From an uncultured Alphaproteobacteria bacterium (GTDB taxonomy: Bacteria; Pseudomonadota; Alphaproteobacteria; RF32; CAG-239): a stretch of 64,000 nucleotides of DNA. Under the pieces are notes generated by a model. It did no database searches. It was not told the origin of the DNA and was given only the letters and a program-made list of their open reading frames with translations. The stretch is taken from contig CASFSV010000014.1 in the NCBI GenBank assembly GCA_949297415.1, positions 7,030 through 71,029 of the forward strand. The letters run 5' to 3'. This document shows, piece by piece, positions 4,891-64,000 of this stretch. The translations under genes and the position numbers were made by a program. Position 1 is the first letter of the stretch. Every line of letters begins with the position of its first letter.

Positions 4891-4967
4891 CGGAACGTAG
4901 TTCAGCCTGGTAGAACGCTGCGTTCGGGTCGCAGAGGTCAGTGGTTCGAATCCACCCGTTCCGACCA
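4891..4967 (+). tRNA. tRNA-Pro (anticodon CGG)
   Basis: Acceptor cggaacg/cgttccg plus A plus CCA. Anticodon stem ctgcg/cgcag with loop ttCGGgt. T-loop ggttcgaatcc. Followed by hairpin accgccctatgaggcggt and a T-run. Confidence 0.92.
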
Positions 4968-51340: not shown

Positions 51341-53010
51341 GGCAATTCCCTCCTATAAAATGACAGAAGAAAACATATTATTCCGATAACTATAAAGGCG
51401 AAACATGCCATATAACTCTTACGATTAACTTTAAAAAATAAAGATATTCCCATTTTGTGCAGACCTGTCAAACCTGCCGTAATTATTTTTTCTGAAAAAA
51501 CAAAATCCACCATCAGCCATAATGTTCTGCTTAAATACATAAATGGTGTAACTAATGTGTAAAAAAAGAAACTTTTGCTTAAATCTTCTTTTTGAAACCA
51601 TTCTATTTCATATACGGCTCTTATTTTAGTTAGTAGCGGGCACCAACACAAAACTATAAAAAAGAGAATAAACAGAATATTATAAAGTGTATACGCTTGC
51701 ATTTCTATACTTGTATATACCAATAAACTTAGCATCACCAATAAAGATATCGGACGAAGAGGATTGGGAGTTAAATTTTCCAGTTTCCTTGTGTATGGAG
51801 ATTGGTATATATGATTAAGCACTATGCCTATGGCACAAATTAATATTGTTCCTGTTATAAGTATCCAAAATTGTTCTTGTTTTACAGAAATACGATATAT
51901 CAATGTTATAAATATATTGGCAATTAATATAAATTGAACTAATGTGGTTTTTAATATGAAGGAATTTGTTTCTCTTCCATTCAACATTTCACTTACTTTG
52001 GTTTCGTGATTTTGATATAAATACATTTTTAAAAATAGTAAATTGATGAAATAGCCTACACTGTAATAAAATGAATATTGCCAATTCCACTGTAAATCGC
52101 GATGTTCCAACATTAACAGTAAAAGTCCTATAAATCCCATATTCAGATATACCAATTTCTTTTTTAAATTATCTATTATAAGAAAGTTCAAAATACCAAA
52201 TATCATTGTTAACATGCTTATTATCTTTAACAATGGCAATGCTAAATCTGAAACTTCTACCAAGTTATGCAACTTTAGTAAGACAAGTATACCTGTTAAA
52301 GGTGCAAATAACAAATTTACAGTGCTCATACGCTGAAGTCTTGCGGCGCTTAAATCCAGCAAATAGCTCTGAAACATAAAAACTCCCATTTTAATAAATA
52401 CAGCAACCAAAAGCATCAACCCAACAAAATCTTTATGTCGACCTATTTTTTCATATTGTGGCAAATCTTCAAGTGACAGACTTTGCAGCTTTCCACATAC
52501 AAGCGCCAAAACCATAAACAAACATGTATCAGCAAAGAAATTGTATATTACATATCGATGTGACGAATCTACATCTTTTAGTATCAAATATCCGAGAATA
52601 TCTGTTATAAAGACTGCAGTTATCATCTGCACATAATTTTCAGAGCATATTAATAAGCTTGAGGAGGCAAAATTTAATAAAATAAAAGCATTAAAAGCAC
52701 TCTTTTTTTCTTCATATCGAAATATATTGTTATGAAGAATCGTCACAAGGGATAAGAAAAATAAAGGCAATAGTAAACGATGCTCTCCTAATTCCGGGCT
52801 AAAATCAATCGTTATATTTCCAATTTTAGATGTGCTCCATAGAAAAGAGAAACTTTCTTTATTGAGATTGACAGCATTTGTAGCAAATTCCATAAATAAA
52901 GCCGTTGCTGCAAAAAATATAAGCCAAGATATTAACCTATCATACTTCATTCTTTGTTTTATAAGGCCTATAAAGCTCAGAACAATTATAGAGGCTATTA
53001 TTTGTATCAT
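51337..53010 (-). CDS. nuoL: NuoL-like antiporter-type membrane subunit, shortened and divergent
   Basis: Polytopic, 557 aa, 4-nt overlap with the nuoM-like gene. Only faint Proton_antipo_M-like pattern (ITDILGYLIL..., FIKMGVFMFQ). Confidence 0.5.
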   Translation of the reverse strand: MIQIIASIIVLSFIGLIKQRMKYDRLISWLIFFAATALFMEFATNAVNLNKESFSFLWSTSKIGNITIDFSPELGEHRLLLPLFFLSLVTILHNNIFRYEEKKSAFNAFILLNFASSSLLICSENYVQMITAVFITDILGYLILKDVDSSHRYVIYNFFADTCLFMVLALVCGKLQSLSLEDLPQYEKIGRHKDFVGLMLLVAVFIKMGVFMFQSYLLDLSAARLQRMSTVNLLFAPLTGILVLLKLHNLVEVSDLALPLLKIISMLTMIFGILNFLIIDNLKKKLVYLNMGFIGLLLLMLEHRDLQWNWQYSFYYSVGYFINLLFLKMYLYQNHETKVSEMLNGRETNSFILKTTLVQFILIANIFITLIYRISVKQEQFWILITGTILICAIGIVLNHIYQSPYTRKLENLTPNPLRPISLLVMLSLLVYTSIEMQAYTLYNILFILFFIVLCWCPLLTKIRAVYEIEWFQKEDLSKSFFFYTLVTPFMYLSRTLWLMVDFVFSEKIITAGLTGLHKMGISLFFKVNRKSYMACFAFIVIGIICFLLSFYRRELP

Positions 53011-53072
53011 AAGAAACTATCCTTTCCTTTTGCCTCAGAATCTATAAACGGTATTAGTTTAAAGGATAGATA

Positions 53073-53390
53073 TTACTTAATCAAGGATTTTACATCTTTT
53101 ACTATACGAACAGGTACTTCATATTCTCTAGCCACATCTTCATTTTCAACTTCTACTATGAGCATTGAACTAACTGACTTTAACGGCATTCTTGCATCTT
53201 TTGCAATACTCTCAAATACGACAGCACTATCTTTTGTTCTGTATAAAAGAGCGGTTGTACCGCCATCATATACAAAGCGTGGATTTTCCGGTCCTCCGGC
53301 TCGAGAATTGATAATAATTAAGATATCCCCTGCTTCATTTTGTAATATATCATATCTGCTTTCTTGATCTATTTCTTTAATTGTGGACAT
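53073..53390 (-). CDS. hypothetical soluble protein (105 aa)
   Basis: ORF occupying the position where nuoK would normally precede nuoL. It is not hydrophobic, so it is not NuoK. Confidence 0.45.
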   Translation of the reverse strand: MSTIKEIDQESRYDILQNEAGDILIIINSRAGGPENPRFVYDGGTTALLYRTKDSAVVFESIAKDARMPLKSVSSMLIVEVENEDVAREYEVPVRIVKDVKSLIK

Positions 53391-53492
53391 TCTTCCCTCT
53401 TCTAATATCTTGTTATTTTGTTGTTTAATTTGTTTTTAGCACATAATAGTTAATAAATAAATAGCTAAATGAAAAAAAAATTAATTTTTTTA

Positions 53493-53521
53493 TTGACTAT
53501 CTAAAAATTATACTTTATATA
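53493..53521 (+). promoter_or_regulatory. sigma-70-like promoter of tRNA-Lys
   Basis: TTGACT, 17 nt, TATATA. The -10 element ends 19 nt before the mature tRNA 5' end. Confidence 0.6.
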
Positions 53522-53540
53522 CCTCTCTCAGTTACATTGT

Positions 53541-53616
53541 GGGCCCGTAGCTCAGTCGGTAGAGCATTTGACTTTTAATCAAAGGGTCATGGGTTCGAAT
53601 CCCGTCGGGCTCACCA
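53541..53616 (+). tRNA. tRNA-Lys (anticodon UUU)
   Basis: gggcccg/cgggctc acceptor (with one G-U) plus A plus CCA. Anticodon stem tttga/tcaaa with loop cTTTTaa. T-loop gggttcgaatccc. Hairpin aaggcttt..aaagcctt plus T-run follows. Confidence 0.93.
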
Positions 53617-53999
53617 GTAAAACAAAGGCTTTGAGAGAAATCTTAAAGCCTTTTACTTTTTGCTAGTAGTGAAATAGTAGTGGATACAAATAGCTTTTCA
53701 CGAATCTTTTCTCGTTCTTTTCTTCGATAACTTTATTTTGCTATTGAAGTTTACCCGAATCTTTTTTAGAAAAGGCTTTATGTGCATTTTTTTATCAAAT
53801 AAAGCCAGCCATACAGGACAACGATATAGGCGTTTTTTTTACAAATCGAAGAAAAATTAAACAAATATTTACGCAAGTCTCAGAGAGAGAATTCCATATC
53901 TCTTTAGCTTTCATTAAGAATCTTTAATCTCCACTTTTGATGAGTATTTTTAAATACTATATAATTATATACTGTGAGTATACTGAAAAATTGAAACAC

Positions 54000-54028
54000 T
54001 TGCATTTTATTTAAAAATTCTTTAGCAT
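54000..54028 (+). promoter_or_regulatory. candidate promoter of the helicase/DUF2290-like operon
   Basis: TTGCAT, 17 nt, TAGCAT, about 37 nt upstream of ATG 54065. Preceded by direct repeat TATACTG..TATACTG (53968-53985) with 11-nt spacing. Confidence 0.35.
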
Positions 54029-54064
54029 GATTGTCTGTTAAGAAATAAAATTAGGTATAGGTTA

Positions 54065-56185
54065 ATGAGGCTCTTAAACAAGATAAACGATATATTCAAA
54101 AGAAATATTTTTGAAGACGGAGAAACTCTAGAAGTTGTTAGAGGTGCTAGTAGAGGCAATCTTCTTCCTATTAGTAATTTGATTGACACCCTTTCTGCAC
54201 TGAAAATATCAGGCACTCTTTATATAGGTTATCCAGTACTTTCCTCCGCAGACAATAATGAGGTTATTGATGCTTTGCTCATTTCTAAAAGTGTTGGATT
54301 ATTAGCTTTTAATTTTCCTAATACATCGCAATCACTTGATGAATTATGTGACGTTCAAGATAGAATAATATACACTTTTGAAGCTAACCTGAAAAAGCAT
54401 GAAGAACTGAGGAATGGAAGAAGCCTGATTATTACCCCTCAAATCGTAACATATGTTGAAGATATTAATAATTTTAATCCCCAAAATAAAGCTTATATTT
54501 TTGCTGATAGCAATTCTTTAGGTAAGACTCTAAAAAAAATAAAAAATGAATTGAGTGACGATCAGTTAAAACGAATCAATTCAGCCATCCAAAAAGTTTC
54601 ATCGCTTAAACCTAAAAACACACGAAAAAATGCTATCACAGATGGCTCTAAGGGCTTTATATTAAAACAAATAGAAAAGGAAATTGCTAATTTAGATAAA
54701 TGGCAAAAACAGGCTTCTATCGAAGTTCCAGATGGTCCCCAAAGAATCAGAGGATTAGCGGGGTCTGGAAAAACTGTAGTTCTTGCATTAAAAGCGGCAT
54801 ATTTACATACTAATTACCCAGAATGGAAAATTGCTGTAACATTTTATACGCGTTCTTTAAAACAACAATTTCAAGAACTAATTGAAAAATTTACTTATGC
54901 TCATTCAGAAAGCAAACCAGATTGGGATAAAATAGAAATTCTACACGCATGGGGATCTTTATCTGAAAAAGGAATATATTCCGAGGCATCTCAGAAAGCA
55001 GGTATCAAACCTCTGAATTTTCAAACAGCAAAAGAAATTAGCCCTAATGACCCCTTTCGCTTTGTTTGTGAGCAACTAAATAATGAAATTAAAGACAAAA
55101 ATATTGAAATGTACGATGCCATTCTAGTTGATGAAGCTCAGGATTTTCCCGATACATTTTTTAAAATACTATATAAAATGGCTAAAGGAGATAAAAAAAT
55201 TGTATGGGCATATGATGAACTTCAAAATTTATCTGGCTCAACAATGCCATCTATTAATAATTTATTTGATGGGAATATTACAGTAGACAACTTCAAAAAT
55301 GAAGTCGGACGGCCTAGAAAAGATATTGTTCTCCCTATATGTTATAGAAATACACCATGGGCAATAACTGTCGCACATGCTTTAGGATTTGGAATTTATC
55401 GTAATGGTGGTTTAGTCCAGTTCTTTGAACAATTTGACCTGTGGAAAGATGTTGGTTATGATGTTGATAAACCAATGGACTTTGGGGTAGATGTATCCTT
55501 AGTTCGAAGCAAAGGTTCTTATCCAGAATACTTTGATAAATATATTACAAAAACAGATGCTGTACAGGTAAATACGTTCGAAACTGTATCTGAACAATAT
55601 ACTAAGCTTGCTCAATCAATCAAAGAAAATATTGAGAAAGATGAATTAACTCCTCAAGATATCATGATCATTCTCCCCGATGCCTATACGGCACAGAAAG
55701 AGTATGTGAGATTATCAAAGATTTTAAGTGAGTATAATATTCCTGCACATCTTGCTGGAGTATCAACAAATAGAGATACTTTTCATATAGATGATTCTGT
55801 TACTGTAACAAGTATCTACCGAGCAAAAGGAAATGAAGCGGCAATGGTATATCTTGTTAATTCTGAATATTGCTATATTGGTTTCAACCTCCCGAGTCTA
55901 AGAAATACATTGTTTACAGCAATAACTCGCTCTAGAGCATGGGTTAGAATATTTGGTGTTGGTTTTAAGATGAAACTACTTGAAGAGGAAATTAATAAAG
56001 TTATAGATAACGATTTCAAATTAATTTTCACCATTCCATCAAAAGAAGTTTTAAGAAATCTTCGAAAAATTAATAGAGATTTATCTGAAGATGACAATTT
56101 TGTTAAAGAAGCGAGTAAACTCATACAAAATGGTGCAACTGAGGATGATTTACATCAAGTTATTCGTGAGTTGTTTGAAAACTGA
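54065..56185 (+). CDS. SF1 (UvrD/AAA_19-like) helicase with degenerate NERD-like N-terminal domain; helicase component of a helicase+DUF2290-type defence pair
   Basis: GLAGSGKTVVLALKAAY (Walker A), ILVDEAQDF (motif II), VWAYDELQNL, ICYRNT, SIYRAKGNEAAMVYLV, TAITRSRAW. N-terminal roughly 200 aa has IDALLISKSVGLLAFNF where NERD nucleases carry D...ExK. Confidence 0.8.
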   Translation: MRLLNKINDIFKRNIFEDGETLEVVRGASRGNLLPISNLIDTLSALKISGTLYIGYPVLSSADNNEVIDALLISKSVGLLAFNFPNTSQSLDELCDVQDRIIYTFEANLKKHEELRNGRSLIITPQIVTYVEDINNFNPQNKAYIFADSNSLGKTLKKIKNELSDDQLKRINSAIQKVSSLKPKNTRKNAITDGSKGFILKQIEKEIANLDKWQKQASIEVPDGPQRIRGLAGSGKTVVLALKAAYLHTNYPEWKIAVTFYTRSLKQQFQELIEKFTYAHSESKPDWDKIEILHAWGSLSEKGIYSEASQKAGIKPLNFQTAKEISPNDPFRFVCEQLNNEIKDKNIEMYDAILVDEAQDFPDTFFKILYKMAKGDKKIVWAYDELQNLSGSTMPSINNLFDGNITVDNFKNEVGRPRKDIVLPICYRNTPWAITVAHALGFGIYRNGGLVQFFEQFDLWKDVGYDVDKPMDFGVDVSLVRSKGSYPEYFDKYITKTDAVQVNTFETVSEQYTKLAQSIKENIEKDELTPQDIMIILPDAYTAQKEYVRLSKILSEYNIPAHLAGVSTNRDTFHIDDSVTVTSIYRAKGNEAAMVYLVNSEYCYIGFNLPSLRNTLFTAITRSRAWVRIFGVGFKMKLLEEEINKVIDNDFKLIFTIPSKEVLRNLRKINRDLSEDDNFVKEASKLIQNGATEDDLHQVIRELFEN

Positions 56186-56865
56186 TGTCACTTGATAAAG
56201 AAATATTGGAAGATATTAACGATACTTGCGTGAAACTTGTTGAGAATGACCTTGCGTATTCTTTTCAAGGGGTTTGTTGTGAAAAACTTTCTGGGGGGAT
56301 AAGACGAATATGTTGGTCTAATCATATATCAGGAACACTTAATACTTCTTCTTATTTTAATAATTTAGAGCAATATAAAAATATATTAAGAAATAATGCT
56401 TATTTCTGCATGCTATACGATGGTTCTATTATCCGCGCATCATACTCTATCGAGAGAAATAAACTAATTGCGCAGAATTTACTTTATTGGCCAGCCCCTT
56501 TTAATCTTAATCTACAAAATATTAATTTTGAATTTGGTGGTCCTTTAGAAATTTTAGAAGACATTATGTCATCTGAAGATTGGCATCAGCGTATGATTAT
56601 GAGATCTCCGATAAGAATTGATTTTGACCAAAAAAATTGTTCAGATGAACATCCTTTAATTCACTTGCACATACAGGATAAAGATTGCAGAATCGCTGTT
56701 AACAAACCTCTTTGCTTTAATTCTTTTGTACGTTTTATTTTTGAAAATCATTATAATCAGATATATAAAAAAGAAAAATTATTTAGACATCTTTCACATA
56801 AAAACTTAAATTTTGATATGGGTAAGATGGAGCATTCTTTATCTTTATTATTTAAATATAAATAG
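56185..56865 (+). CDS. DUF2290-like protein, translationally coupled partner of the helicase
   Basis: ATG overlaps the helicase stop (TGATG at 56183-56187). 226 aa, soluble. IRIDFDQKNCSDEHPLIHLHIQ segment. Size and pairing fit the helicase+DUF2290 family as I recall it. Not confirmed by HMM. Confidence 0.55.
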   Translation: MSLDKEILEDINDTCVKLVENDLAYSFQGVCCEKLSGGIRRICWSNHISGTLNTSSYFNNLEQYKNILRNNAYFCMLYDGSIIRASYSIERNKLIAQNLLYWPAPFNLNLQNINFEFGGPLEILEDIMSSEDWHQRMIMRSPIRIDFDQKNCSDEHPLIHLHIQDKDCRIAVNKPLCFNSFVRFIFENHYNQIYKKEKLFRHLSHKNLNFDMGKMEHSLSLLFKYK

Positions 56866-56879
56866 ATATATATATATAT
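56866..56879. repeat. (AT)7 dinucleotide microsatellite
   Basis: atatatatatatat directly after the TAG stop of the DUF2290-like gene, about 100 nt upstream of the next gene. Confidence 0.9.
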
Positions 56880-56980
56880 TTCTTACTAGCATATCCGCTT
56901 ACAAAAAATGCTTTATACTTGCATTTAAATCAAATTTCTATATTCAATAAATATTATGGCCATGCATGGAGACAAAAGAA

Positions 56981-58657
56981 ATGAGTGTATCTTTTAAGGT
57001 TAGAAAATATAAGTGTTTCGGTGACGAATATCAGGGTTTTGATATCATTAAAAAATTTAATATAGTTATAGGAAAAAATAATAGCGGAAAATCAAAATTA
57101 TTGGAAGCATTAGAATATTTTATCAAAAAAGGAATTCAATCCTCATATATTCCAGATATTCAAATTGGAAGTGTCCTTACAGAAGAACCTTTAATTAATA
57201 TTTTTAAAAATCGCACTTATGGAGGTGTTTTAGGAGAAGCACTTGGTAACAGTTCCTATAGCCACTGGGATTTAGTTGGAAAGTATTTAGTTGGTCATTT
57301 CTATACATTATCATTATATGGTGATAATAAAAAAATAGATACTGATTTAAGCTATTTTAAAGCACATTTAGAGGCTGAACCTATTATATCATCAATGTTA
57401 CAAAGAATACAAGTTACCAACCCTTTTGAAGGATATCGCTATTTGCATTTACAAGCAGAACGAGATATAAAAAAAGAAAAAATTAATTTTGATAAAAAAT
57501 TATCTTTTGACTTTATAGATAAAGATGCCAGCCATATTACAGACTTAATTGCGCGTATGCTTAATGATGAAAACGGTAATCAAAATCACTGGCAAGAATA
57601 TATCGAAAATAATTTTTTGGATTTAATTAATCAAATTGTAGCTCCGGAAATAAAGTTCTCTCGTATTTATACTAAAACTAATTCTGTTGGCACATATGAA
57701 ATATATCTTGAAGAAAAGGAAAAAGGAGGAATTAAGCTTTCTGACTGTGGTAGTGGTCTTAAAACTGTTATTGCAACCCTGACACTTTTACATATTATTC
57801 CTTTTTTAACCCAAGAAAAAAAGTTTGTATATGCGTTGGAAGAACTAGAAAACAATATGCATCCCAGCTTAGAACGAAAACTTTTATTTCATATAAAAGA
57901 TTATATAATGGCAAACAAAGATATGCTATTATTCTTAACAACTCACTCTAATGTTGCAATAGATTTATTTGGTAATGATAAAAATTCACAAATACTTCGC
58001 GTGACAAATGATGGACACTATTCCACTGTTCAAAAAGTAGATACTTGGAATGATAAGAAAAATTTACTAGATGAACTAGGGATAAAAGCAAGCGATATTT
58101 TACAATCCAATTGTATCATATGGGTAGAAGGCCCCTCAGACAGAATATATATTAACAAATGGATACAGCTTTTTAATACTGGCTCTCCTTTACAAGAAGG
58201 ATTAGATTATCAATGTGTCTTTTACGGAGGTGCATTGCTGGCGCATTATTCAGCCGATGATAATGGCTTCATCAATCTTCTTAAAGTTAATAAAAATTCT
58301 TATGTTGTTATGGATAGTGATAAAAGGTCAAGTGACGGAACTCTAAAACAAAGAGTTCAACAAATTGCAGAAGCTATGCCTGATAATCATTGGATAACCT
58401 CTGGCAAAGAAATAGAAAACTATTTGCCTAAGGCTGCTCTTTCCGCATATTTCGGAGAAGAAACAGAGATTGACCAATACGCTTTATTTCCCGACATATA
58501 CAAAGAAAGAAAAGGTGTTGATACATTTGACAAAGTTTCCTTTGCTTCAGAAATTATTCAAAAGGACGAATATAACATAAGTAACCTTGAGAAATGCTTA
58601 GATTTAAAAGAGCAGATGAAAAAATTAATAGATTTTATCAGAGCTGCAAATTTATAA
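56981..58657 (+). CDS. OLD-family-like ABC ATPase fused to a Toprim/DUF4435-like nuclease domain (P2 Old / GajA / fused PARIS class)
   Basis: ATG 56981 with ggaga RBS. GKNNSGKSKLLEAL (Walker A), LSDCGSGLK (signature), FVYALEELENNMHP (Walker B/D-loop), LLFLTTHS (H-loop). C-terminal IIWVEGPSDRIYI (Toprim Glu) and VVMDSDK (DxD). Confidence 0.8.
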   Translation: MSVSFKVRKYKCFGDEYQGFDIIKKFNIVIGKNNSGKSKLLEALEYFIKKGIQSSYIPDIQIGSVLTEEPLINIFKNRTYGGVLGEALGNSSYSHWDLVGKYLVGHFYTLSLYGDNKKIDTDLSYFKAHLEAEPIISSMLQRIQVTNPFEGYRYLHLQAERDIKKEKINFDKKLSFDFIDKDASHITDLIARMLNDENGNQNHWQEYIENNFLDLINQIVAPEIKFSRIYTKTNSVGTYEIYLEEKEKGGIKLSDCGSGLKTVIATLTLLHIIPFLTQEKKFVYALEELENNMHPSLERKLLFHIKDYIMANKDMLLFLTTHSNVAIDLFGNDKNSQILRVTNDGHYSTVQKVDTWNDKKNLLDELGIKASDILQSNCIIWVEGPSDRIYINKWIQLFNTGSPLQEGLDYQCVFYGGALLAHYSADDNGFINLLKVNKNSYVVMDSDKRSSDGTLKQRVQQIAEAMPDNHWITSGKEIENYLPKAALSAYFGEETEIDQYALFPDIYKERKGVDTFDKVSFASEIIQKDEYNISNLEKCLDLKEQMKKLIDFIRAANL

Positions 58658-58664
58658 TTCTGCT

Positions 58665-61600
58665 TTAGTTATGTGCATATATCTCGTCAAGCTTTTGTTC
58701 TAGATTTCCGGCTTGAACTGCCGGCAACGTATCAAATTGTCTTAAATTATGCTTTTCTATCTTAATTTCGTCACTGAAGCCTAAGATATAGGCGATGGCT
58801 ATGCGATATATAATTTCTGTCGGAGCCAAACCATAAACCTGATTGGCAAAAATATGTTGCAACCGTTCTTTATCATTAGGGAATGCTTGTTTCATCTTCT
58901 CGTTTCTATATAATCTTTTAACAATTTCGGTAATATAAAGACCGGATTTCATATACAAGTCGATAAAGGTTTTATTAGGATCATCAAAGCATTCCGGATT
59001 TTCTGCCAACAAGCTATCGACCATTTCTACAACTACTTTCTTGGGGGTGTATATTTGGTTGGTCTTTTGAGGCGGAATGTAATCGAAAATGTCTTCTTTG
59101 CTTGCTTCATCAAAGTAATTTCCTAATTTTCGTTTCAGATTAAGAAACTCTTTAACCGAATCATTAAAGACTATTGGATCAAATAAATGTCCGTCAAAAT
59201 GCTTTGTTTCTCCAGTTTCAGCATCAACAAACTCTCCACCATCTCTTAAAAATCTAAATTCATCCAGAGTAATGCTGGTTACTTCTTTAAATACCTCATC
59301 AGGGATAATTTTATCAAAATTTTCCAAACACGTTTCTTCATTTCCATAAGCCATTAAAAATGATGGAATTGTTCTTGAAAAACCTCTTAAGTGGTCTCTG
59401 ATAGAGTTTTCTATTTCATTCTTTTGTTTTTGCTTTTTATCTGTTTCTACAACTTTAACAATCGTTTCGCCGGCTTCTTTAACAACGTCTTCCACAACAG
59501 ACTGCATTTTTTCAACAAATTCTTGTGTGTTTTGTTGTTTTTGTTGGTCAAATTTTTGATTTATGGCTTCTATCATTTCCGGCTTGTTATATTTTTGCGC
59601 TTGCTCTAATTCTTTTTGTCTTTCAAGTTCTGTCTTTTTTTGCTCAATTTGATAATCCCCAAAAGATTTCACAACGGTAATATCAGAACTGGCATTAAGT
59701 TTCCTTTCTAGCGCAGTCATTGTTGACTTTGATAAATCTGTTCCGTAATTATCTTTGGCTACTTTAACTAATTCTGAGGTTACAGCTGTATGGAATTCAT
59801 TTTTCATCCGTTCCAAAAGTTCGTCTTTATCATCCTTATGTGTTTCTTGAATTTGTTTGATTGTATCTTGCAGATTTTGGGTAATACCATAAATTTTTTC
59901 ACCAAAAACATTATCCACGCCAATTTCTATGGCTTGTTGCGGTAATTCTACTTCTCCTTCATCATTGATTGATAAATCTTCTTTTGTTTGTGGTGTAACG
60001 GGTATAGGCTCTTTTACTGCCTCAAATTGTTTAATAATATCTACAACTTCCTGCGGGGCACTAAAAATATTGCTAATATTTTGAAATAAGAAATTACTCA
60101 TAAAACCACGTCTTACAACTTCCAAAGCGTGAATTTTTCGTGGAATGGACAATACTTTTTCAGCATCGAGGGCAATCATTTCGCCTTCATCATCTTCACC
60201 GTAAACAGGAAAGAAGTTCAGAAGTTCGCGAATGTGTTTCTTGCGAGTATCACTATCTCCACCACCGCGAGATGTATCGGCGCTTAAATCGTTGGCAAAT
60301 TGCTCAAAAATATCCAATGTTCGAGCTGGATCGAAGTCAAATACATAAGCATTCTCTTTTCGGTATAATTCGTTTCCAACTTTGAATAAACACGGATTTT
60401 GGGCTCTAAAGGCCGCTTGCATATAAAGTGCGGGACTTTTGACATTGCTGAGCATAAAAACAGCTGTCCATTCCGGAACTGTAATACCGGTTGTAAGTTG
60501 CCCAACCGAAAGAGTTATTGTTTTATCATGCTCTTTAATTGCTTTTCTTACCTTATCCAGAGCTTTTTTATTTTCGCTGTCATCATCAATTTTGCCATTG
60601 CCTGCGGCTAAAACAATTTCATAATCCTTGAAAACATCGTGTTTTTGGAGTTTTTTAGCCAAAGCCTTTGCACTATCAACTCGATTAAGCAGCCAAAATG
60701 TATGTTTTAACTCGTTTTGCAATTCCGGAGTTGAAAAAGGAAACTTCTCTTGACTGACCAAGGCATCTAAAAATTTATCTACATCAGCTTCATATTTAAA
60801 ACTTCCATTGGCATTAGTAATAAAAAATTCGTTCAAATCAAAAGCATATTCTTCTGTTTCGCCATCATTATCAAAATCTGCTCCTTTTTGAAGCTTATCT
60901 CGGATAATTTCAGACATCTGATAGGTATAAAGATTAAGCTGTGGCAAATTTTCGTAAGGGTTTTCTTCGTCTTGAGAACAATCCCATTCTCGTTTTGCTT
61001 TTTGTTCATCAGCGTAGGTCCAGTTGAAAATAGCTTTTTCTTCAAACTTATTATTGGCCAAAGCCTTAAATGGAGTTCCGGACAGATGCAAAGTATATTT
61101 TCTTTTGATATGGTCAAAAGCAATATCGGTTTTGTAGGTATCAACACCTTCATGAGCTTCATCTATTATCAAAATATCCCATTCTAATTCAGCTACTTCT
61201 TTGAGTTTGTCATATTGGCCGCCAAAATAAATAGAACCTTTCATATCTTGCAGTGACACAAACTCTATACAGCCTTTATGATCTGGCTGGCTGATATGTT
61301 TGGTATATTGCTCTCGCGATAGGACATAAGGTTTTCCGATTAAACCATCTACTTGACTGACAAAGTAATATCCTGATTCCGTTCCCAAAAACTTGACATA
61401 ATCTTCGTACCAAGAATTAGCAATGGCTGGTCGGTTGGTTACAATTAACACTTTGGGAACGTTAAGGCTTTTGCATAACGCATAGGCTGACAATGTTTTA
61501 CCAAAACGAGGTTTGGCGTTCCATAAAAATTCTGGCTCATCATCTTGGCGAGATTTAAAATATAAAGAAGTTTGTTCTATAGCCTCATTTTGCTCTTTGC

Positions 61601-61985
61601 GAAGCTTATAAGGAATAACGCCTAATGTTTCTAATATTCCTCTATGTTGTTTAAAATAGCAAAATTCATCATAAGAATCTTGTGGTAAAATATGGAACCA
61701 TTCGGAATCCGGTAGTTTTTTAACATCTTTCTTTTGTAAATAGGCATGAAAATCTTTATCTTTAAAAGAATCTCCGCTTCCATCTTGATAAATAGCCAAA
61801 TCTTGCCATTCCAGCTTAAATTTGATATCTGCTGTTTGGGTTTGTTGTTTGATACGAGCTTCTACATTGTCTTGTTCTGTATAGCCAATCTTTGTCCAAC
61901 CATTATGGCGAGCAATTTCCGGAGTTGTGTAAGCATAGCATTTGGGCTCAATTTTTTTAGCTGTTTTGATGTTAGGAGATTTCAT
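58665..61985 (-). CDS. T5orf172/GIY-YIG-like domain + SF2 (ResIII/SNF2-like) helicase + coiled-coil + degenerate methyltransferase-like C-terminal lobe
   Basis: N-terminus CYAYTT...GWTKIGYTEQ...SEWF (T5orf172-type). NAKPRFGKTLSAYAL (motif I), LIIDEAHEG (DEAH), LHLSGTPF (motif III), GQLTTGITVPEW...MQAAFRAQN (motifs V/VI). C-terminus IYTPKKVVVEMVDSL...FIDLYMKSGLY...VYGLAPTE. Confidence 0.8.
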   Translation of the reverse strand: MKSPNIKTAKKIEPKCYAYTTPEIARHNGWTKIGYTEQDNVEARIKQQTQTADIKFKLEWQDLAIYQDGSGDSFKDKDFHAYLQKKDVKKLPDSEWFHILPQDSYDEFCYFKQHRGILETLGVIPYKLRKEQNEAIEQTSLYFKSRQDDEPEFLWNAKPRFGKTLSAYALCKSLNVPKVLIVTNRPAIANSWYEDYVKFLGTESGYYFVSQVDGLIGKPYVLSREQYTKHISQPDHKGCIEFVSLQDMKGSIYFGGQYDKLKEVAELEWDILIIDEAHEGVDTYKTDIAFDHIKRKYTLHLSGTPFKALANNKFEEKAIFNWTYADEQKAKREWDCSQDEENPYENLPQLNLYTYQMSEIIRDKLQKGADFDNDGETEEYAFDLNEFFITNANGSFKYEADVDKFLDALVSQEKFPFSTPELQNELKHTFWLLNRVDSAKALAKKLQKHDVFKDYEIVLAAGNGKIDDDSENKKALDKVRKAIKEHDKTITLSVGQLTTGITVPEWTAVFMLSNVKSPALYMQAAFRAQNPCLFKVGNELYRKENAYVFDFDPARTLDIFEQFANDLSADTSRGGGDSDTRKKHIRELLNFFPVYGEDDEGEMIALDAEKVLSIPRKIHALEVVRRGFMSNFLFQNISNIFSAPQEVVDIIKQFEAVKEPIPVTPQTKEDLSINDEGEVELPQQAIEIGVDNVFGEKIYGITQNLQDTIKQIQETHKDDKDELLERMKNEFHTAVTSELVKVAKDNYGTDLSKSTMTALERKLNASSDITVVKSFGDYQIEQKKTELERQKELEQAQKYNKPEMIEAINQKFDQQKQQNTQEFVEKMQSVVEDVVKEAGETIVKVVETDKKQKQKNEIENSIRDHLRGFSRTIPSFLMAYGNEETCLENFDKIIPDEVFKEVTSITLDEFRFLRDGGEFVDAETGETKHFDGHLFDPIVFNDSVKEFLNLKRKLGNYFDEASKEDIFDYIPPQKTNQIYTPKKVVVEMVDSLLAENPECFDDPNKTFIDLYMKSGLYITEIVKRLYRNEKMKQAFPNDKERLQHIFANQVYGLAPTEIIYRIAIAYILGFSDEIKIEKHNLRQFDTLPAVQAGNLEQKLDEIYAHN

Positions 61986-61991
61986 AGCTTC

Positions 61992-64000
61992 TTACTCCAT
62001 AGGCTTTACGTTTGTTTCAATAAACTGTATTTCATCTTCAGATAATCCATATTTTTTATACAGTAGTGCATCTATTTCCGGAATAGACTTACTCCAGTCG
62101 ATATCTGAATTTTCTGTAAAATCTTGGAGAGGAACATATGCCCAAGTTGACACAGGATTGTGTTGTGTTTTTTTCAAAATACCAAGTAATACACGTGCTA
62201 ATTTTGTTTTAATATATTTTAAGAGATTTTCTGCTTCTGTTTGATTATTAAAATTACCAATACTTATAAATGTAGGTGTAGCTGACATAAGAGGTGTACC
62301 AATAAGAGGTGTACTCAAAACTTCACCTATAGCACCACATCCGTTAGATTCTGGAACAAATACTTTATAGTTATCAATATTATTACAATTTGGATACCTA
62401 GCAGACATATATTTTTGTTTAACAAATCTATATACCCTTTTTCCATTATATAAGCCCAATATTTTATAACATTCTTCATTGTCTGGTTTATTTTCATATA
62501 TTCCATAATTAGCCAAAACATCTAATGTTGATGATTTTAGTTCGTATTCTTCATTTGGACTTAATTCTTTTACATTTGGATGTTTTTTTTGAACAGACTG
62601 TAACCTTTTGCTAATGGTTTCAGGATAATCTTTCAAATATTCATCATTAAACTTTAAATCAGATCGCCCTCCAAACATAATAGATGGCAGATTATGTTCA
62701 GAGGATTTTACAAATTTAGCAGAAATACTACGGAGAGTATTATCTGGTATAAATTCACCTATAGCACCATAATCTTTTTGATTATCCCTATATATAATAG
62801 CAATCCCTCCTTTTATATCTGTTGTTGGAAATATTTTAGAAGAATCTGCTTCAAAACGTTCTACTTTTATATGGGAATCTTGTAACATTTTTAGATTCCA
62901 CTCTTTTGAAGTTAATCCATTATTGAATAAAAATCTAGCTGGAGATATTAAAATAGACTTATCTGCAATCATTTCGGCTACATCATAGAATAATGGGTAT
63001 ATAGGTTCTTGTCTATTATATGTTTCATTTGATGCTTGATAAGGAGGGTTACCAATAACATAATCAAACTTCATTTTTTTATATCCTTTCAGATCGCGGA
63101 AATAAAAGACAAGCTTATTTCTCCAGTCTTTCACGCGGCAAATAATGGGAAAACTAAGGGTGGGTAAATCGTTAAACAGCTCTAATTGTGAGGCTTCAGA
63201 TGCAACGAACGGTGTACATTCTTTCAAACCGTCCATTTGCCAAATATTCCAAGCAATAACATTAGCTATCTGTTTGAGGTGTGCTATTGCCGGAAATTGT
63301 TGAAATTTATATTTGTAGTTATCAATAAAGGTCCAAAGCATATTTTCTCTGGCTAAAAGAAGATTATCGCCTTGATATTCATATCCATAGGTGCTTTCAT
63401 AAGCTCTTTTAGCCCAAACAAACCAATCGGCTTCATTATCCGTGTTTTCATTAACAATACGTAATTTTCTATCTAACAAGCCAATACGTTTTATAATCGG
63501 CAAAACTTCTCCGGTTGTTGTGTCATATCTTGAAACCAAAAATGGCGCTTCGCCACAAGTGATTTCCAAGCGTTTGGAGTCAACATATCTTTGCCATTCG
63601 GCTTTTTTGCGTTTGTTCGTTTCTTTAAAAGAAATCTTATGTAAGGTTGGCACCCAAGTTTTATCGATCACTTGGTTAAAAACGTTTGGTTCTCCAAACC
63701 ATTCTTCATCACACAGATTATTCATTTCTGCGCAAATCCAACTTGGTGTAAAAACTTCTGCCGATTTGCGGGTTCGGTTAAGCTGATCTTCTTTGCTTTT
63801 GGCTATACGTGGTTGAATTATTTTTGTATTTGAGCCAGTTATTAATTCCGGAAAAATTTCTTTTTCTGCCGTATAAGCCTCGCCGTATTTAGCATATTCA
63901 TCACAAGCCCAGCGAATATAGCGACCGGTTGTTTTGTCTTGTAATAAGATTTTTAATAAATATGGGCTTAACTCCCGAATATTTTGCTCTAAAATGTCAA
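61992..64000 (-). CDS. N6-adenine DNA methyltransferase (Eco57I/TaqI-like gamma class), N-terminus beyond the window
   Basis: FDYVIGNPPYQ (motif IV), LEITCGEAPFL (motif I variant). My own translation upstream of the track start stays open to position 64000 (...RKSAEVFTPSWICAEMNNL...). Stop is 6 nt before the helicase gene start. Confidence 0.8.
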   Translation of the reverse strand, partial: DILEQNIRELSPYLLKILLQDKTTGRYIRWACDEYAKYGEAYTAEKEIFPELITGSNTKIIQPRIAKSKEDQLNRTRKSAEVFTPSWICAEMNNLCDEEWFGEPNVFNQVIDKTWVPTLHKISFKETNKRKKAEWQRYVDSKRLEITCGEAPFLVSRYDTTTGEVLPIIKRIGLLDRKLRIVNENTDNEADWFVWAKRAYESTYGYEYQGDNLLLARENMLWTFIDNYKYKFQQFPAIAHLKQIANVIAWNIWQMDGLKECTPFVASEASQLELFNDLPTLSFPIICRVKDWRNKLVFYFRDLKGYKKMKFDYVIGNPPYQASNETYNRQEPIYPLFYDVAEMIADKSILISPARFLFNNGLTSKEWNLKMLQDSHIKVERFEADSSKIFPTTDIKGGIAIIYRDNQKDYGAIGEFIPDNTLRSISAKFVKSSEHNLPSIMFGGRSDLKFNDEYLKDYPETISKRLQSVQKKHPNVKELSPNEEYELKSSTLDVLANYGIYENKPDNEECYKILGLYNGKRVYRFVKQKYMSARYPNCNNIDNYKVFVPESNGCGAIGEVLSTPLIGTPLMSATPTFISIGNFNNQTEAENLLKYIKTKLARVLLGILKKTQHNPVSTWAYVPLQDFTENSDIDWSKSIPEIDALLYKKYGLSEDEIQFIETNVKPME

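What the first reader, a model, noticed from the sequence alone, without database searches (positions are those of the whole stretch)
53493..64000. tRNA-Lys-flanked defence island with at least three modules, continuing past the window
Up to 53,400 the window shows conserved housekeeping synteny (nuoLMN-like, birA, rnj). Directly 3' of tRNA-Lys(UUU) the content changes. There is a non-coding, very AT-rich gap of about 450 bp. It is followed by five large ORFs whose only recognisable domains are NTPase, helicase, nuclease and methyltransferase types. By eye these ORFs are more Lys/Asn/Ile-rich than the core genes. tRNA 3' ends are classical integration sites. No integrase or att repeat is visible in the window, so the distal boundary lies beyond 64,000.
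Basis: partly seen in the sequence, partly recalled or inferred. Interest (0 to 1): 0.75.

Follow-up and report, generated by a model that had tools for sequence, protein, structure and literature searches.

The report
Mobile defence island at tRNA-Lys
The last 10 kb of the window is the near end of a mobile element inserted at a lysine tRNA gene of an uncultured gut alphaproteobacterium; it carries three separate anti-phage gene cassettes, a common kind of island, though one cassette is a widespread, uncharacterised restriction-like system.

Summary
tRNA-Lys(UUU) lies at 53541-53616. It is followed by a 448-bp non-coding spacer and five large genes.

These form three cassettes:
- Helicase+DUF2290, a known anti-T7 system.
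- A stand-alone OLD-family ATPase/TOPRIM nuclease.
- An Eco57I-type N6-adenine methyltransferase plus a T5orf172(GIY-YIG-like)/Snf2-like helicase. The methyltransferase gene runs past 64000.

Six related genomes keep the ldcA-rnj-birA-nuo-tRNA-Lys synteny but differ after the tRNA. Two have housekeeping genes there, and none has the window's full gene set.

One relative carries the same restriction-like cassette (95-97% identical) in a 12-kb element. That element is bounded by a 94-bp direct repeat of the tRNA 3' end and encodes a tyrosine integrase. A 100%-identical contig extends the window by 984 bp and matches this backbone.

Composition differs only modestly and does not mark the boundary.

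Just beyond the window lie a serine invertase and an 85-bp invertible, promoter-like segment upstream of the methyltransferase.

Verdict: a real, ordinary kind of island, a new member of a known kind. It contains one cassette worth testing experimentally.

The parts
53541..53616 (+). tRNA-Lys(UUU), the integration target
   Evidence: ARAGORN and Rfam RF00005 at 75.7 bits. It sits at the same place in relatives L083-L088.
53567..53668 (+). attL-like repeat: the last 50 nt of the tRNA plus ~52 nt downstream, including the terminator hairpin at 53624-53653
   Evidence: It is 99% identical over 102 nt to a second copy in relative L003 (positions 708-809), which lies beside that element's integrase. 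Within L003 the two copies are 94 nt long, 98.9% identical and 12,023 bp apart. The hairpin was found.
53669..54064 (.). AT-rich non-coding spacer; similarity to L003 ends at 53682/53683; promoter-like site at 53937-53965
   Evidence: GC is 0.279 for 53617-54064. No credible ORF and no Rfam family. blastn breakpoint. TTGATG-17-TATAAT is a consensus match only.
54065..56185 (+). Cassette 1, gene A: UvrD-like SF1 helicase of the Helicase+DUF2290 system (706 aa)
   Evidence: PADLOC PDLC03002 'Helicase', E = 7e-215, covering residues 23-679. Pfam UvrD_C_2, UvrD-helicase and AAA_19.
56185..56865 (+). Cassette 1, gene B: DUF2290 protein (226 aa); its start overlaps the helicase stop
   Evidence: Pfam PF10053, E = 2e-40. 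PADLOC DUF2290, E = 3e-37. The cassette ends at the 56926/56927 breakpoint against L005.
56966..58657 (+). Cassette 2: stand-alone OLD-family nuclease, ABC-type ATPase plus C-terminal TOPRIM (563 aa)
   Evidence: - Pfam AAA_15 and AAA_21.
- AlphaFold2 pLDDT 88.
- Foldseek top hits are retron Eco8 OLD nuclease, T. scotoductus OLD (6P74) and GajA, at E about 1e-14 to 1e-12.
- Invariant in 24 homologues: K42/S43, E292/E293, H327, E388, D392, D450, D452, E482, E484.
- Homologues have no constant partner gene.
- An 89%-identical copy in L005 lacks cassette 1.
58665..61985 (-). Cassette 3, gene B: T5orf172 (GIY-YIG-like) domain, SF2/Snf2-like helicase, long coiled coil, and a truncated methyltransferase-like C-terminus (1106 aa)
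   Evidence: - Pfam ResIII 7e-14, MUG113 3e-6, T5orf172 6e-3.
- Invariant in 23 homologues: Y17, Y19, K32, G34, R44, E95; Walker A G162-K163-T164; D275-E276-A277 with E279; Q523 to R527.
- Foldseek finds Snf2-type motors and the Type ISP enzymes LlaBIII and LlaGI, but the model is weak at pLDDT 62.
- It directly follows the methyltransferase in nearly all of 80 loci.
61992..64000 (-). Cassette 3, gene A: Eco57I-type N6-adenine methyltransferase with a variable target-recognition half. It is cut by the window end; the full gene encodes 727 aa and starts about 175 bp beyond 64000
   Evidence: - Pfam Eco57I with NPPY at residue 376 of 727. PADLOC MTase_II 5e-72 and REase_MTase_IIG 1e-24.
- The frame is open to the window edge.
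- Full length is seen in L001 and L002.
- The C-terminal half (about 61992-63036) is only 21-32% identical between three alleles, while the N-terminal part is 96-100% identical.

Best explanation
**What it is.** Window 53567-64000 is the tRNA-proximal two-thirds of an integrative mobile element of about 15-16 kb. The element sits in the 3' end of tRNA-Lys(UUU) of an uncultured gut alphaproteobacterium.

**Integration (shown in a relative, inferred for the window).** A tyrosine integrase recombines the element with the tRNA 3' end. This leaves a ~94-bp direct repeat at both ends. The backbone also carries an excisionase-like HTH protein, a small-terminase-like protein and a serine invertase. 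That makes it look like a phage satellite or a small mobilisable island (inferred).

**Cargo.** The tRNA-proximal end is a slot where defence cassettes are exchanged. This copy holds three independent cassettes.

1. *Helicase+DUF2290.* Family membership is shown. The mechanism is unknown. I infer that the UvrD-like motor senses phage DNA or replication intermediates and that DUF2290 acts as its partner or effector.
2. *A stand-alone OLD-family nuclease.* An ABC ATPase drives a TOPRIM nuclease that nicks or cuts invading DNA. The fold and catalytic residues are shown; the activity is inferred.
3. *A restriction-like operon.* The methyltransferase marks host DNA at a site set by its exchangeable recognition half. 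The partner protein translocates on unmarked DNA with its Snf2-like motor and cuts with its N-terminal GIY-YIG-type domain, much as Type ISP and Type III enzymes do (inferred).

**Regulation.** An 85-bp invertible, promoter-like segment next to the invertase probably switches cassette 3 on and off. The inversion itself is shown; its regulatory role is inferred.
For: **Variable content at a conserved site.** The site is conserved across six relatives and the content after it differs between them.

**att repeat and integrase.** L003 has a 94-nt repeat (98.9% identical copies) and a Phage_integrase/Arm-DNA-bind_3 protein.

**Unoccupied arrangement.** L108 and L109 carry a related integrase (67%) beside a partial tRNA-Lys 3' copy. 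On the other side lie esterase, radical SAM and mnmA, the same genes that follow tRNA-Lys directly in L085 and L086.

**The window shares the L003 backbone.** Similarity is 95% over 58675-62134 and 63037-64000. L002, which extends the window, matches L003 at 98% through the end of the small-terminase-like gene. The prophage copies match only from the invertase onward.

**Cassette independence.**
- Breakpoints fall at 53682/3, 56926/7 and 58674/5.
- The OLD gene occurs with cassette 3 but without cassette 1 in L005 and L106.
- An OLD homologue sits alone after tRNA-Lys in L088.
- Cassette 3 occurs without OLD in L003, L006, L096 and L105.

**Cassette identities.** PADLOC, Pfam, fold and conserved catalytic residues support each one. 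Helicase+DUF2290 blocked phage T7 in E. coli (PMC9122126). A T5orf172 protein is an active nuclease of the GIY-YIG superfamily (PMC8263062).

**Recognition-half swapping.** Three alleles sit on near-identical backbones.

**Inversion.** The 85-bp segment is exactly reverse-complemented (85/85) in L096 relative to L002, beside an Mpi-like invertase.
Against: - The distal repeat and the integrase were not observed in the window's own genome. Only 984 bp beyond 64000 could be recovered.
- An exact empty site with both of the window's flanks was not shown. L003's distal flank is a GT2-like gene end and matches nothing in L083 or L085-L088, including the unoccupied L085/L086.
- No replication or primase gene was identified in the backbone. 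The small-terminase call rests on one PHROG hit (E = 1e-17). The satellite reading is therefore tentative.
- No defence activity has been tested for cassettes 2 and 3.
- The analogous B. subtilis dnmA-yeeB-yeeC cluster gave no restriction or phage protection (PMC9973331). A lactococcal Helicase+DUF2290 gave no protection against the phages tested (PMC11381338).
- The T5orf172-helicase structure model is of low confidence.
- The composition shift is modest and is shared by adjacent core membrane-protein genes.
Confidence: 0.85

Rival explanations
1. The window element is a degraded or intact prophage end rather than a small integrative island. The invertase, methyltransferase and helicase block would then be a phage moron region downstream of the tail and lysis genes.
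For: In L005 and L096 the same block (T5orf172-helicase 96-98% identical) follows tail, GpJ-like, NlpC/P60 and lysis-type genes. A human-faecal phage contig (MT835780) carries a 64%-identical homologue.
Against: L002 is identical to the window and extends it. It matches the L003 backbone at 98% upstream of the invertase, into the small-terminase-like gene. The prophage copies align only from the invertase onward. The L003 element is 12 kb with no structural genes.
Confidence: 0.1
2. Cassette 3 is not a restriction system. It would be an orphan, phase-variable epigenetic regulator (a phasevarion), or a relic in which the helicase/T5orf172 protein no longer cuts DNA.
For: B. subtilis DnmA-YeeB-YeeC has the same domain set but showed no restriction and no phage protection. 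[quoted passage not shown] An invertible segment upstream fits on/off switching of a methylome. In 7 of 8 copies the promoter-like hexamers face away from the methyltransferase.
Against: - The nuclease-like and ATPase motifs are invariant over 23 homologues of 50-74% identity.
- The pair is kept adjacent in nearly all of 80 loci from many phyla.
- The recognition half shows allele replacement typical of restriction specificity.
- V. crassostreae DnmA/YeeB homologues do affect phage sensitivity, as cited in PMC9973331.
Confidence: 0.25
3. The three + strand genes (helicase, DUF2290, OLD-like ATPase) form one three-gene Gabija-like or PARIS-like system rather than two cassettes.
For: They share one strand with only a 100-bp gap. 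Gabija pairs an OLD-type GajA with a UvrD-type GajB. Weak GajA, GajB and AriA PADLOC hits exist, at 1e-9 to 1e-15.
Against: - The helicase matches the DUF2290-associated model at 7e-215, against 6.5e-9 for GajB.
- The OLD gene (89-95% identical) occurs next to cassette 3 without helicase or DUF2290 in L005 and L106, with a breakpoint 39 bp upstream of its start codon.
- Homologues stand alone in L088 and in an unrelated proteobacterium.
- No DUF4435/AriB and no reverse transcriptase is present.
Confidence: 0.07
4. The region is vertically inherited core DNA, and the differences among relatives reflect ordinary gene loss.
For: The composition difference from the core is modest, and neighbouring core genes are equally AT-rich.
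Against: - Content differs among the relatives, and none shares the window's gene set, despite mostly 80-99% identical flanking proteins in five of them.
- An att duplication and an integrase are present in L003.
- The same cassette sits in prophages and near other tRNAs elsewhere.
- Methyltransferase/helicase homologues at 45-60% identity occur in Bacillota, Bacteroidota, Verrucomicrobiota and Spirochaetota.
Confidence: 0.02

Closest known systems
Helicase+DUF2290 anti-phage system (Rousset et al. 2022, PMC9122126; found in P4-satellite and prophage hotspots)
   Same: It is a two-gene unit of a UvrD-like helicase followed by a DUF2290 protein. PADLOC model hits are 7e-215 and 3e-37. It sits in a variable slot of a mobile element.
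   Different: The host is an uncultured gut alphaproteobacterium. Activity is untested here, and the mechanism is unknown for the whole family.
OLD-family nucleases: class 1 stand-alone enzymes (phage P2 Old, T. scotoductus OLD, PDB 6P74), GajA of Gabija, and the retron Eco8 effector
   Same: It has an N-terminal ABC-type ATPase and a C-terminal TOPRIM fold with conserved acidic residues. The best structural matches are exactly these proteins. It occurs as a single gene, like class 1 enzymes.
   Different: - Sequence similarity is very low (14-16% identity). No curated PADLOC or NCBIfam model is passed.
- There is no UvrD partner as in Gabija and no RT/msr-msd as in retrons.
- It has no tblastn match to any P2-like phage in the phage collection, which yielded a single, partial hit.
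DnmA(YeeA)-YeeB-YeeC cluster and MmeI-like systems lacking a nuclease domain (Morgan et al. 2009, PMC2731913; PMC9973331)
   Same: It combines a gamma-class N6-adenine methyltransferase carrying its own recognition domain, an SF2 helicase and a T5orf172/GIY-YIG-type domain, in one operon on acquired DNA.
   Different: - There are two genes rather than three. T5orf172 is fused to the N-terminus of the helicase.
- The methyltransferase hits only the Pfam Eco57I model, not the MmeI family domains.
- Direct homology to YeeA, YeeB and YeeC was not tested.
Type ISP restriction-modification enzymes (LlaGI, LlaBIII)
   Same: The functional parts are the same: nuclease, SF2 dsDNA-translocase-like motor, gamma-class methyltransferase and recognition domain. 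Foldseek finds 4XQK and 5FFJ at about 1e-4. Single-chain relatives exist on Firmicutes plasmids at 1417-1446 aa.
   Different: - Here the system is split into two proteins.
- The nuclease is T5orf172/GIY-YIG-like rather than Mrr/PD-(D/E)xK.
- The catalytic NPPY and recognition half sits on the upstream gene.
tRNA-integrated defence islands, and phage satellites (P4-like, PICI) with defence hotspots
   Same: It integrates at a tRNA 3' end with a direct repeat. The backbone carries a tyrosine integrase, an excisionase-like HTH protein and a small-terminase-like gene. The element is 12-16 kb, and a terminal slot holds interchangeable defence genes.
   Different: No primase/replicase or capsid-redirecting genes were recognised. 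Helper phage and induction are unknown. The integrase and distal repeat were seen only in relatives.
Invertible promoters controlled by serine invertases (Mpi of Bacteroides fragilis; Hin/Gin family)
   Same: An Mpi-like serine invertase gene lies beside a short segment found in both orientations. The segment carries promoter-like hexamers directly upstream of an operon.
   Different: The flanking inverted repeats are short and imperfect (about 9 of 12). Only 1 of 8 copies is in the alternative orientation. Switching within one population was not shown.

Membership tests
tRNA-integrated genomic island / integrative element | Insertion directly 3' of a tRNA gene, and absence from close relatives | tested here: met
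   The synteny block ends at tRNA-Lys in six relatives. L085 and L086 have housekeeping genes after it, and L083, L087 and L088 have other cargo.
tRNA-integrated genomic island / integrative element | Direct repeat of the tRNA 3' end at the distal boundary | tested here: inconclusive
   No repeat lies inside the window. A 94-nt repeat is present in L003, which carries the same backbone. Partial tRNA-Lys 3' copies lie beside the integrase in L108 and L109. The window's own distal end could not be retrieved.
tRNA-integrated genomic island / integrative element | Element-encoded integrase | tested here: inconclusive
   None lies in the window. A serine recombinase sits 294-899 bp beyond the window end in the identical contig L002. 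A tyrosine integrase is present in L003.
tRNA-integrated genomic island / integrative element | Composition different from the host core | tested here: met
   GC3 is 0.21-0.28 against 0.297 +/- 0.038 (p = 0.002). The tetranucleotide distance has z of about 4.9. The adjacent core nuo-like genes deviate as much.
Defence island | Several unrelated defence-type systems clustered together | tested here: met
   There are three cassettes with PADLOC/Pfam defence-type hits. Their independence is shown by breakpoints and by separate occurrence.
Helicase+DUF2290 system | Adjacent UvrD-like helicase and DUF2290 genes matching the family models | tested here: met
   PDLC03002 at 7e-215; PDLC02998 at 3e-37; PF10053 at 2e-40; the genes overlap by one base.
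Helicase+DUF2290 system | Protection against phage | not testable with these tools
   Protection is shown only for the K. pneumoniae system in E. coli against T7 (PMC9122126).
OLD-family nuclease, class 1 | ABC-type ATPase followed by a TOPRIM domain with catalytic acidic residues | tested here: met
   Pfam AAA_15 and AAA_21. Foldseek matches to 6P74, the Eco8 OLD nuclease and GajA span the whole chain. E388, D392, D450, D452, E482 and E484 are invariant.
OLD-family nuclease, class 1 | Stand-alone gene with no conserved partner | tested here: met
   The neighbourhoods of P0024, P0088, L005 and L106 differ.
Gabija | A GajA gene paired with a GajB UvrD helicase | tested here: not met
   The adjacent helicase belongs to the DUF2290-linked family, and its GajB hit is only 6.5e-9. 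OLD homologues occur without any such helicase.
PARIS | AriA ATPase plus AriB (DUF4435) TOPRIM protein | tested here: not met
   Only the N-terminal P-loop region matches AriA (8e-15, residues 9-82), and there is no DUF4435 hit.
Retron type I-B (Eco8-like) | Reverse transcriptase and msr/msd RNA next to the OLD-type effector | tested here: not met
   There is no RT domain in any island ORF and no Rfam retron RNA. The Eco8 effector NCBIfam score is 37.6 against a cutoff of 250.
Type III restriction-modification | Mod methyltransferase plus a Res subunit with helicase domains and a C-terminal PD-(D/E)xK nuclease | tested here: not met
   The gene order (methylase then helicase) and the ResIII domain fit. 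However, the nuclease-like domain is an N-terminal T5orf172, and the C-terminus is methyltransferase-like.
Type ISP / Type IIG single-chain restriction-modification enzymes | Nuclease, motor, methyltransferase and recognition domain on one polypeptide | tested here: not met
   The window version is split into proteins of 727 and 1106 aa. PADLOC REase_MTase_IIG matches each only in part. Fused relatives exist on plasmids.
DnmA-YeeB-YeeC type cluster | An MmeI-like methyltransferase lacking a nuclease, flanked by a helicase and a T5orf172/GIY-YIG protein | tested here: inconclusive
   The domain content is the same, but it is spread over two genes. Only the Eco57I Pfam domain was detected on the methyltransferase. 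No direct comparison with the B. subtilis proteins was possible.
Phage satellite (PICI / P4-like) | Integrase, excision regulator, replication module and packaging-redirection gene in a 10-15 kb island; helper-phage induction | tested here: inconclusive
   In L003 the integrase, the HTH_17/excisionase and a small-terminase-like PHROG hit (1e-17) are present. The replication module was not recognised. Induction is not testable.

The most novel reading that the evidence does not exclude
The block of invertase, 85-bp invertible segment, methyltransferase and T5orf172-Snf2 helicase is a distinct, phase-variable class of ATP-dependent restriction-modification system. It would work like a split Type ISP enzyme, but with a GIY-YIG-type nuclease. 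It would travel as one unit between prophages and satellite-like islands, change specificity by swapping the recognition half, and carry a downstream slot that collects further defence genes such as OLD and Helicase+DUF2290. Its family has more than 8000 homologues in public data and no studied member that I could find in the searched literature.
Probability: 0.4. Interest if true: 0.6.

Novelty: new member of a known kind. Interest (0 to 1): 0.4.

Why it matters
**The island itself is ordinary.** It shows the textbook pattern of defence genes riding on a tRNA-targeting mobile element, here in a little-studied lineage of uncultured gut Alphaproteobacteria. It also gives a clean natural example of cassette-by-cassette exchange. 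The same backbone is seen with different downstream cargo, and with three recognition-domain alleles.

**The methyltransferase/T5orf172-helicase pair is the more useful lead.**
- It is extremely common in gut metagenomes across phyla.
- Standard tools do not call it a complete system.
- I found no study of the family in the searched literature.
- It exists in split and fused forms that differ in which gene carries the catalytic half.
- It appears to be under an invertible switch.

Testing this pair would fill a gap in restriction-modification classification. It could also explain variable methylomes and phage resistance in gut bacteria.

Tried and rejected
- **Single-sequence PDB searches.** Searches with the three large proteins found only helicase P-loop matches or nothing. 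Profile searches added only ATPase-level hits.
- The resulting T5orf172-helicase model is poor (pLDDT 62, pTM 0.32), and its fold matches are only indicative.
- **C-terminus comparison.** BLASTP of the helicase C-terminus against the methyltransferase N-terminus found nothing. Two homologous methyltransferase N-halves therefore remain a conjecture.
- **Source contig.** The exact-protein look-up reports a third contig in the 0.2-1 Mb length class but does not show it. The species-representative genomes do not contain this strain; the best match is 89%.
- **More copies of the invertible segment.** Scans of genome and metagenome collections added three contigs, all in the common orientation.
- **Retron, Gabija and PARIS readings of the OLD gene** were rejected (see the membership test).
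- **Rfam** found nothing but the tRNA in 53000-64000.
- **GC content as a boundary marker** was rejected, because the drop starts inside the conserved nuo-like genes.

Full report
**1. Observation**

ARAGORN and Rfam place tRNA-Lys(UUU) at 53541-53616. Upstream lie an LD-carboxypeptidase, RNase J, BirA and two Proton_antipo_M proteins. There is also a third membrane protein with no Pfam hit and a 105-aa protein of unknown family.

Downstream comes a 448-bp spacer with GC 0.279. It holds only the tRNA terminator hairpin, a promoter-like match and no credible ORF or RNA family. Five large genes follow.

One correction applies. The last gene is not a 577-aa ORF starting at 63725. Its frame stays open to the window edge, and the full product is 727 aa in two 100%-identical contigs, L001 and L002.

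**2. Composition**

- Island GC is 0.326 against 0.360 for the core.
- Four of the five genes have GC3 of about 0.21, at or below the lowest of 45 core ORFs (mean 0.297, sd 0.038; Mann-Whitney p = 0.002).
- Lys+Asn+Ile is only slightly raised, at 0.24 against 0.22.
- The tetranucleotide distance of the island from the core is 0.159, against 0.090 +/- 0.014 for core segments of equal length.
- The conserved nuoM/L-like genes at 47.5-53 kb are as deviant.

Composition agrees with foreign origin but cannot place the boundary.

**3. Comparative evidence for an island**

Five species-representative MAGs of uncultured gut Alphaproteobacteria (L083-L087) and a sixth genome (L088) were compared. All keep ldcA-rnj-birA-nuoN-nuoM-nuoL-like-hyp105-tRNA-Lys. 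Core proteins are mostly 80-99% identical in L083-L087 and 48-87% in L088. After the tRNA they differ:

| Locus | Content after tRNA-Lys |
|---|---|
| L085, L086 | GNAT, esterase, radical SAM/BATS, MnmA |
| L083 | 1853-aa DUF4011/AAA_11/AAA_12/MTES_1575 protein, plus a type I HsdR C-terminal fragment |
| L087 | Radical-SAM cluster, bounded distally by a copy of the last 18 nt of the tRNA plus the downstream sequence |
| L088 | A 53%-identical OLD homologue |
| L084/L003 | Only the methyltransferase/helicase cassette |

In L003 the last 50 nt of tRNA-Lys plus 44 nt downstream recur as a 94-nt direct repeat (98.9% identical), 12,023 bp away. The repeat sits immediately beside a 399-aa tyrosine integrase with Phage_integrase and Arm-DNA-bind_3 domains.

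L108 and L109 carry a 67%-identical integrase next to a partial tRNA-Lys 3' copy. On the other side they have esterase/radical SAM/mnmA. This marks the L085/L086 arrangement as the unoccupied state.

**4. The window carries the L003-type backbone**

blastn shows 89% identity over 53000-53682 and 95% over 58675-62134 and 63037-64000.

L002 extends the window by 984 bp. It matches L003 at 98% over its first 998 bp, including the end of a 137-aa gene. That gene resembles a small terminase (phrog_4102, E = 1e-17).

The prophage-borne copies (L005, L006, L096) align only from the invertase onward.

The L003 backbone comprises the integrase, a 242-aa protein, an HTH_17/excisionase-like protein and a 182-aa protein. 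It continues with a 227-aa protein, the small-terminase-like protein and the serine invertase. The 227-aa protein carries an H-L-H motif; that reading is mine and was not tested.

By analogy the window element should end about 5.3 kb beyond 64000, giving a total of about 15.7 kb. This is an inference.

**5. Cassettes**

Breakpoints at 53682/3 (against L003), 56926/7 (against L005) and 58674/5 (against L003 and L006) delimit three units.

*Cassette 1, Helicase+DUF2290.* PADLOC hits are 7e-215 and 3e-37, and PF10053 scores 2e-40. It belongs to the family shown to block phage T7 (PMC9122126). A lactococcal homologue gave no protection against the phages tested (PMC11381338).

*Cassette 2, the 563-aa ATPase.*
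- It folds confidently (pLDDT 88).
- Its best whole-chain structural matches are the retron Eco8 OLD nuclease, Thermus scotoductus OLD (6P74) and GajA.
- Walker A, signature, Walker B, H-loop and TOPRIM acidic residues are invariant in 24 homologues.
- It passes no curated family threshold.
- It has no constant neighbour.
- It accompanies cassette 3 without cassette 1 in L005 and L106.

I therefore read it as a stand-alone class-1-like OLD nuclease, not part of Gabija, PARIS or a retron.

*Cassette 3, methyltransferase plus helicase.*
- The methyltransferase (Eco57I domain; FTP at residue 142, NPPY at 376) is followed after 6 bp by the 1106-aa protein.
- That protein has a T5orf172/MUG113 domain with Y17, Y19, K32, G34, R44 and E95 invariant.
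- It has a complete SF2 ATPase motif set, a long coiled coil, and a C-terminus resembling the start of a methyltransferase domain without NPPY.
- The pair is adjacent in nearly all of 80 loci from Alphaproteobacteria, Bacillota, Bacteroidota, Verrucomicrobiota, Planctomycetota and others.
- The protein search saturated at 8000 hits.
- Among near-identical elements the methyltransferase N-part is 96-100% identical. The half after NPPY falls into three alleles of 21-32% identity. This is the signature of specificity exchange.

**6. How cassette 3 relates to known systems**

Its parts match Type ISP enzymes, and Foldseek finds LlaBIII and LlaGI at about 1e-4 on a weak model.

Fused single-chain relatives of 1417-1446 aa occur on Pediococcus and Enterococcus plasmids. 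They consist of T5orf172, ResIII and Eco57I, and are preceded by a 250-306-aa protein. That protein is homologous only to the N-terminal ~300 residues of the window methyltransferase. Between the two architectures, the NPPY and recognition half has moved from the end of the helicase gene to the end of the upstream gene.

The same domain set, spread over three genes, is the DnmA-YeeB-YeeC cluster. Morgan et al. proposed that such clusters are helicase-dependent restriction systems (PMC2731913). In B. subtilis the cluster showed no restriction (PMC9973331).

T5orf172 domains belong to the GIY-YIG superfamily, and one is an active nuclease (PMC8263062).

The window system meets the definition of none of Type III, Type ISP/IIG or the DnmA cluster. 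It most likely works like them.

**7. Regulation (outside the window)**

A serine recombinase lies about 120 bp upstream of the methyltransferase start. Its best matches are the Mpi master invertase (9e-53) and a PHROG DNA invertase (3e-51).

An 85-bp piece of the spacer between the two genes is exactly reverse-complemented (85/85) in L096 relative to L002. The flanks remain collinear. L096 carries the same methyltransferase allele as the window.

The segment carries two promoter-like hexamer pairs. They face the methyltransferase in L096 and face away in the window strain and six other copies.

Serine recombinase genes lie next to the methyltransferase in 13 of 63 loci with enough upstream DNA, at 32-99% identity.

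The inversion is a fact. Its role as an on/off switch is an inference.

**8. Verdict**

The thing is a mobile defence island at a tRNA gene, a known kind, in a poorly studied host. Its most interesting content is the widespread, uncharacterised and apparently phase-variable methyltransferase/T5orf172-helicase system. Interest is moderate, at 0.4.

Noticed in passing
Beyond the window end: L002 697-781 (equivalent to window ~64202-64286); L096 ~7700-7785: An 85-bp segment lies between a serine invertase gene and the methyltransferase start. It is exactly inverted (85/85) in L096 relative to L002, L003, L005, L006 and L104-L106. It carries two promoter-like hexamer pairs that face the methyltransferase only in L096. 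It is probably an invertible on/off switch for the restriction-like operon.
   Followed up: partly
Window 58665-59100 (helicase C-terminus) and 61992-64000; L097 2188-7364; L098 4247-9326: Firmicutes plasmids carry a fused T5orf172-helicase-methyltransferase of 1417-1446 aa. It is preceded by a short protein homologous only to the first ~300 residues of the window methyltransferase. In the window family the NPPY and recognition half sits on the upstream gene instead, and the helicase ends about 12 residues before where NPPY would be.
   Followed up: partly
Window ~61992-63036 (methyltransferase C-terminal half): Elements that are otherwise more than 95% identical carry three recognition-domain alleles of 21-32% identity. 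The window shares its allele with L096, L003 has a second, and L005 shares a third with L006. This indicates specificity swapping by recombination.
   Followed up: yes
L086 8723-9473; L087 1-467 and 9397-9472: Copies of the tRNA-Lys 3' end and/or its downstream sequence recur at 0.6 kb (L086) and 8.9 kb (L087) from the tRNA. A shared 132-aa gene sits in a different position in the two loci. This suggests tandem accretion of elements at this att site. The L087 insert is a radical-SAM cluster with an LD-carboxypeptidase paralogue.
   Followed up: partly
L005 1-9700; L096 1-7000: The same invertase, methyltransferase and helicase block (96-98% identical) also sits at the end of prophage tail and lysis modules. 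The gene downstream of the helicase differs: an OLD gene in L005 and a 687-aa HATPase_c_3 protein in L096. The block therefore moves between different kinds of mobile element.
   Followed up: partly
L004, L038, L041, L064: More distant copies of the methyltransferase/helicase pair in other alphaproteobacterial MAGs lie within 4-10 kb of tRNA-Val, tRNA-Pro(CGG), tRNA-Leu and tRNA-Asn genes. The window itself has a tRNA-Pro(CGG) at 4891-4967, which was not examined for an island.
   Followed up: no
Window 49913-53010: The nuoM-like and the 557-aa nuoL-like membrane protein genes are conserved in synteny. Yet they are as AT-rich (GC 0.30) and as deviant in tetranucleotides as the island. The 557-aa protein has no Pfam hit and is the most divergent core protein (63-89% identity among relatives).
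   Followed up: no
Window 53073-53390 (- strand): A 105-aa protein with no family hit lies beside the tRNA. It is highly conserved (87-99% identity) across all relatives, more so than its neighbours.
   Followed up: no
L106 5727-7410: The OLD gene downstream of the helicase in this human-gut contig matches in two overlapping pieces (95% and 80% identity). This suggests a frameshifted or recombinant copy.
   Followed up: no
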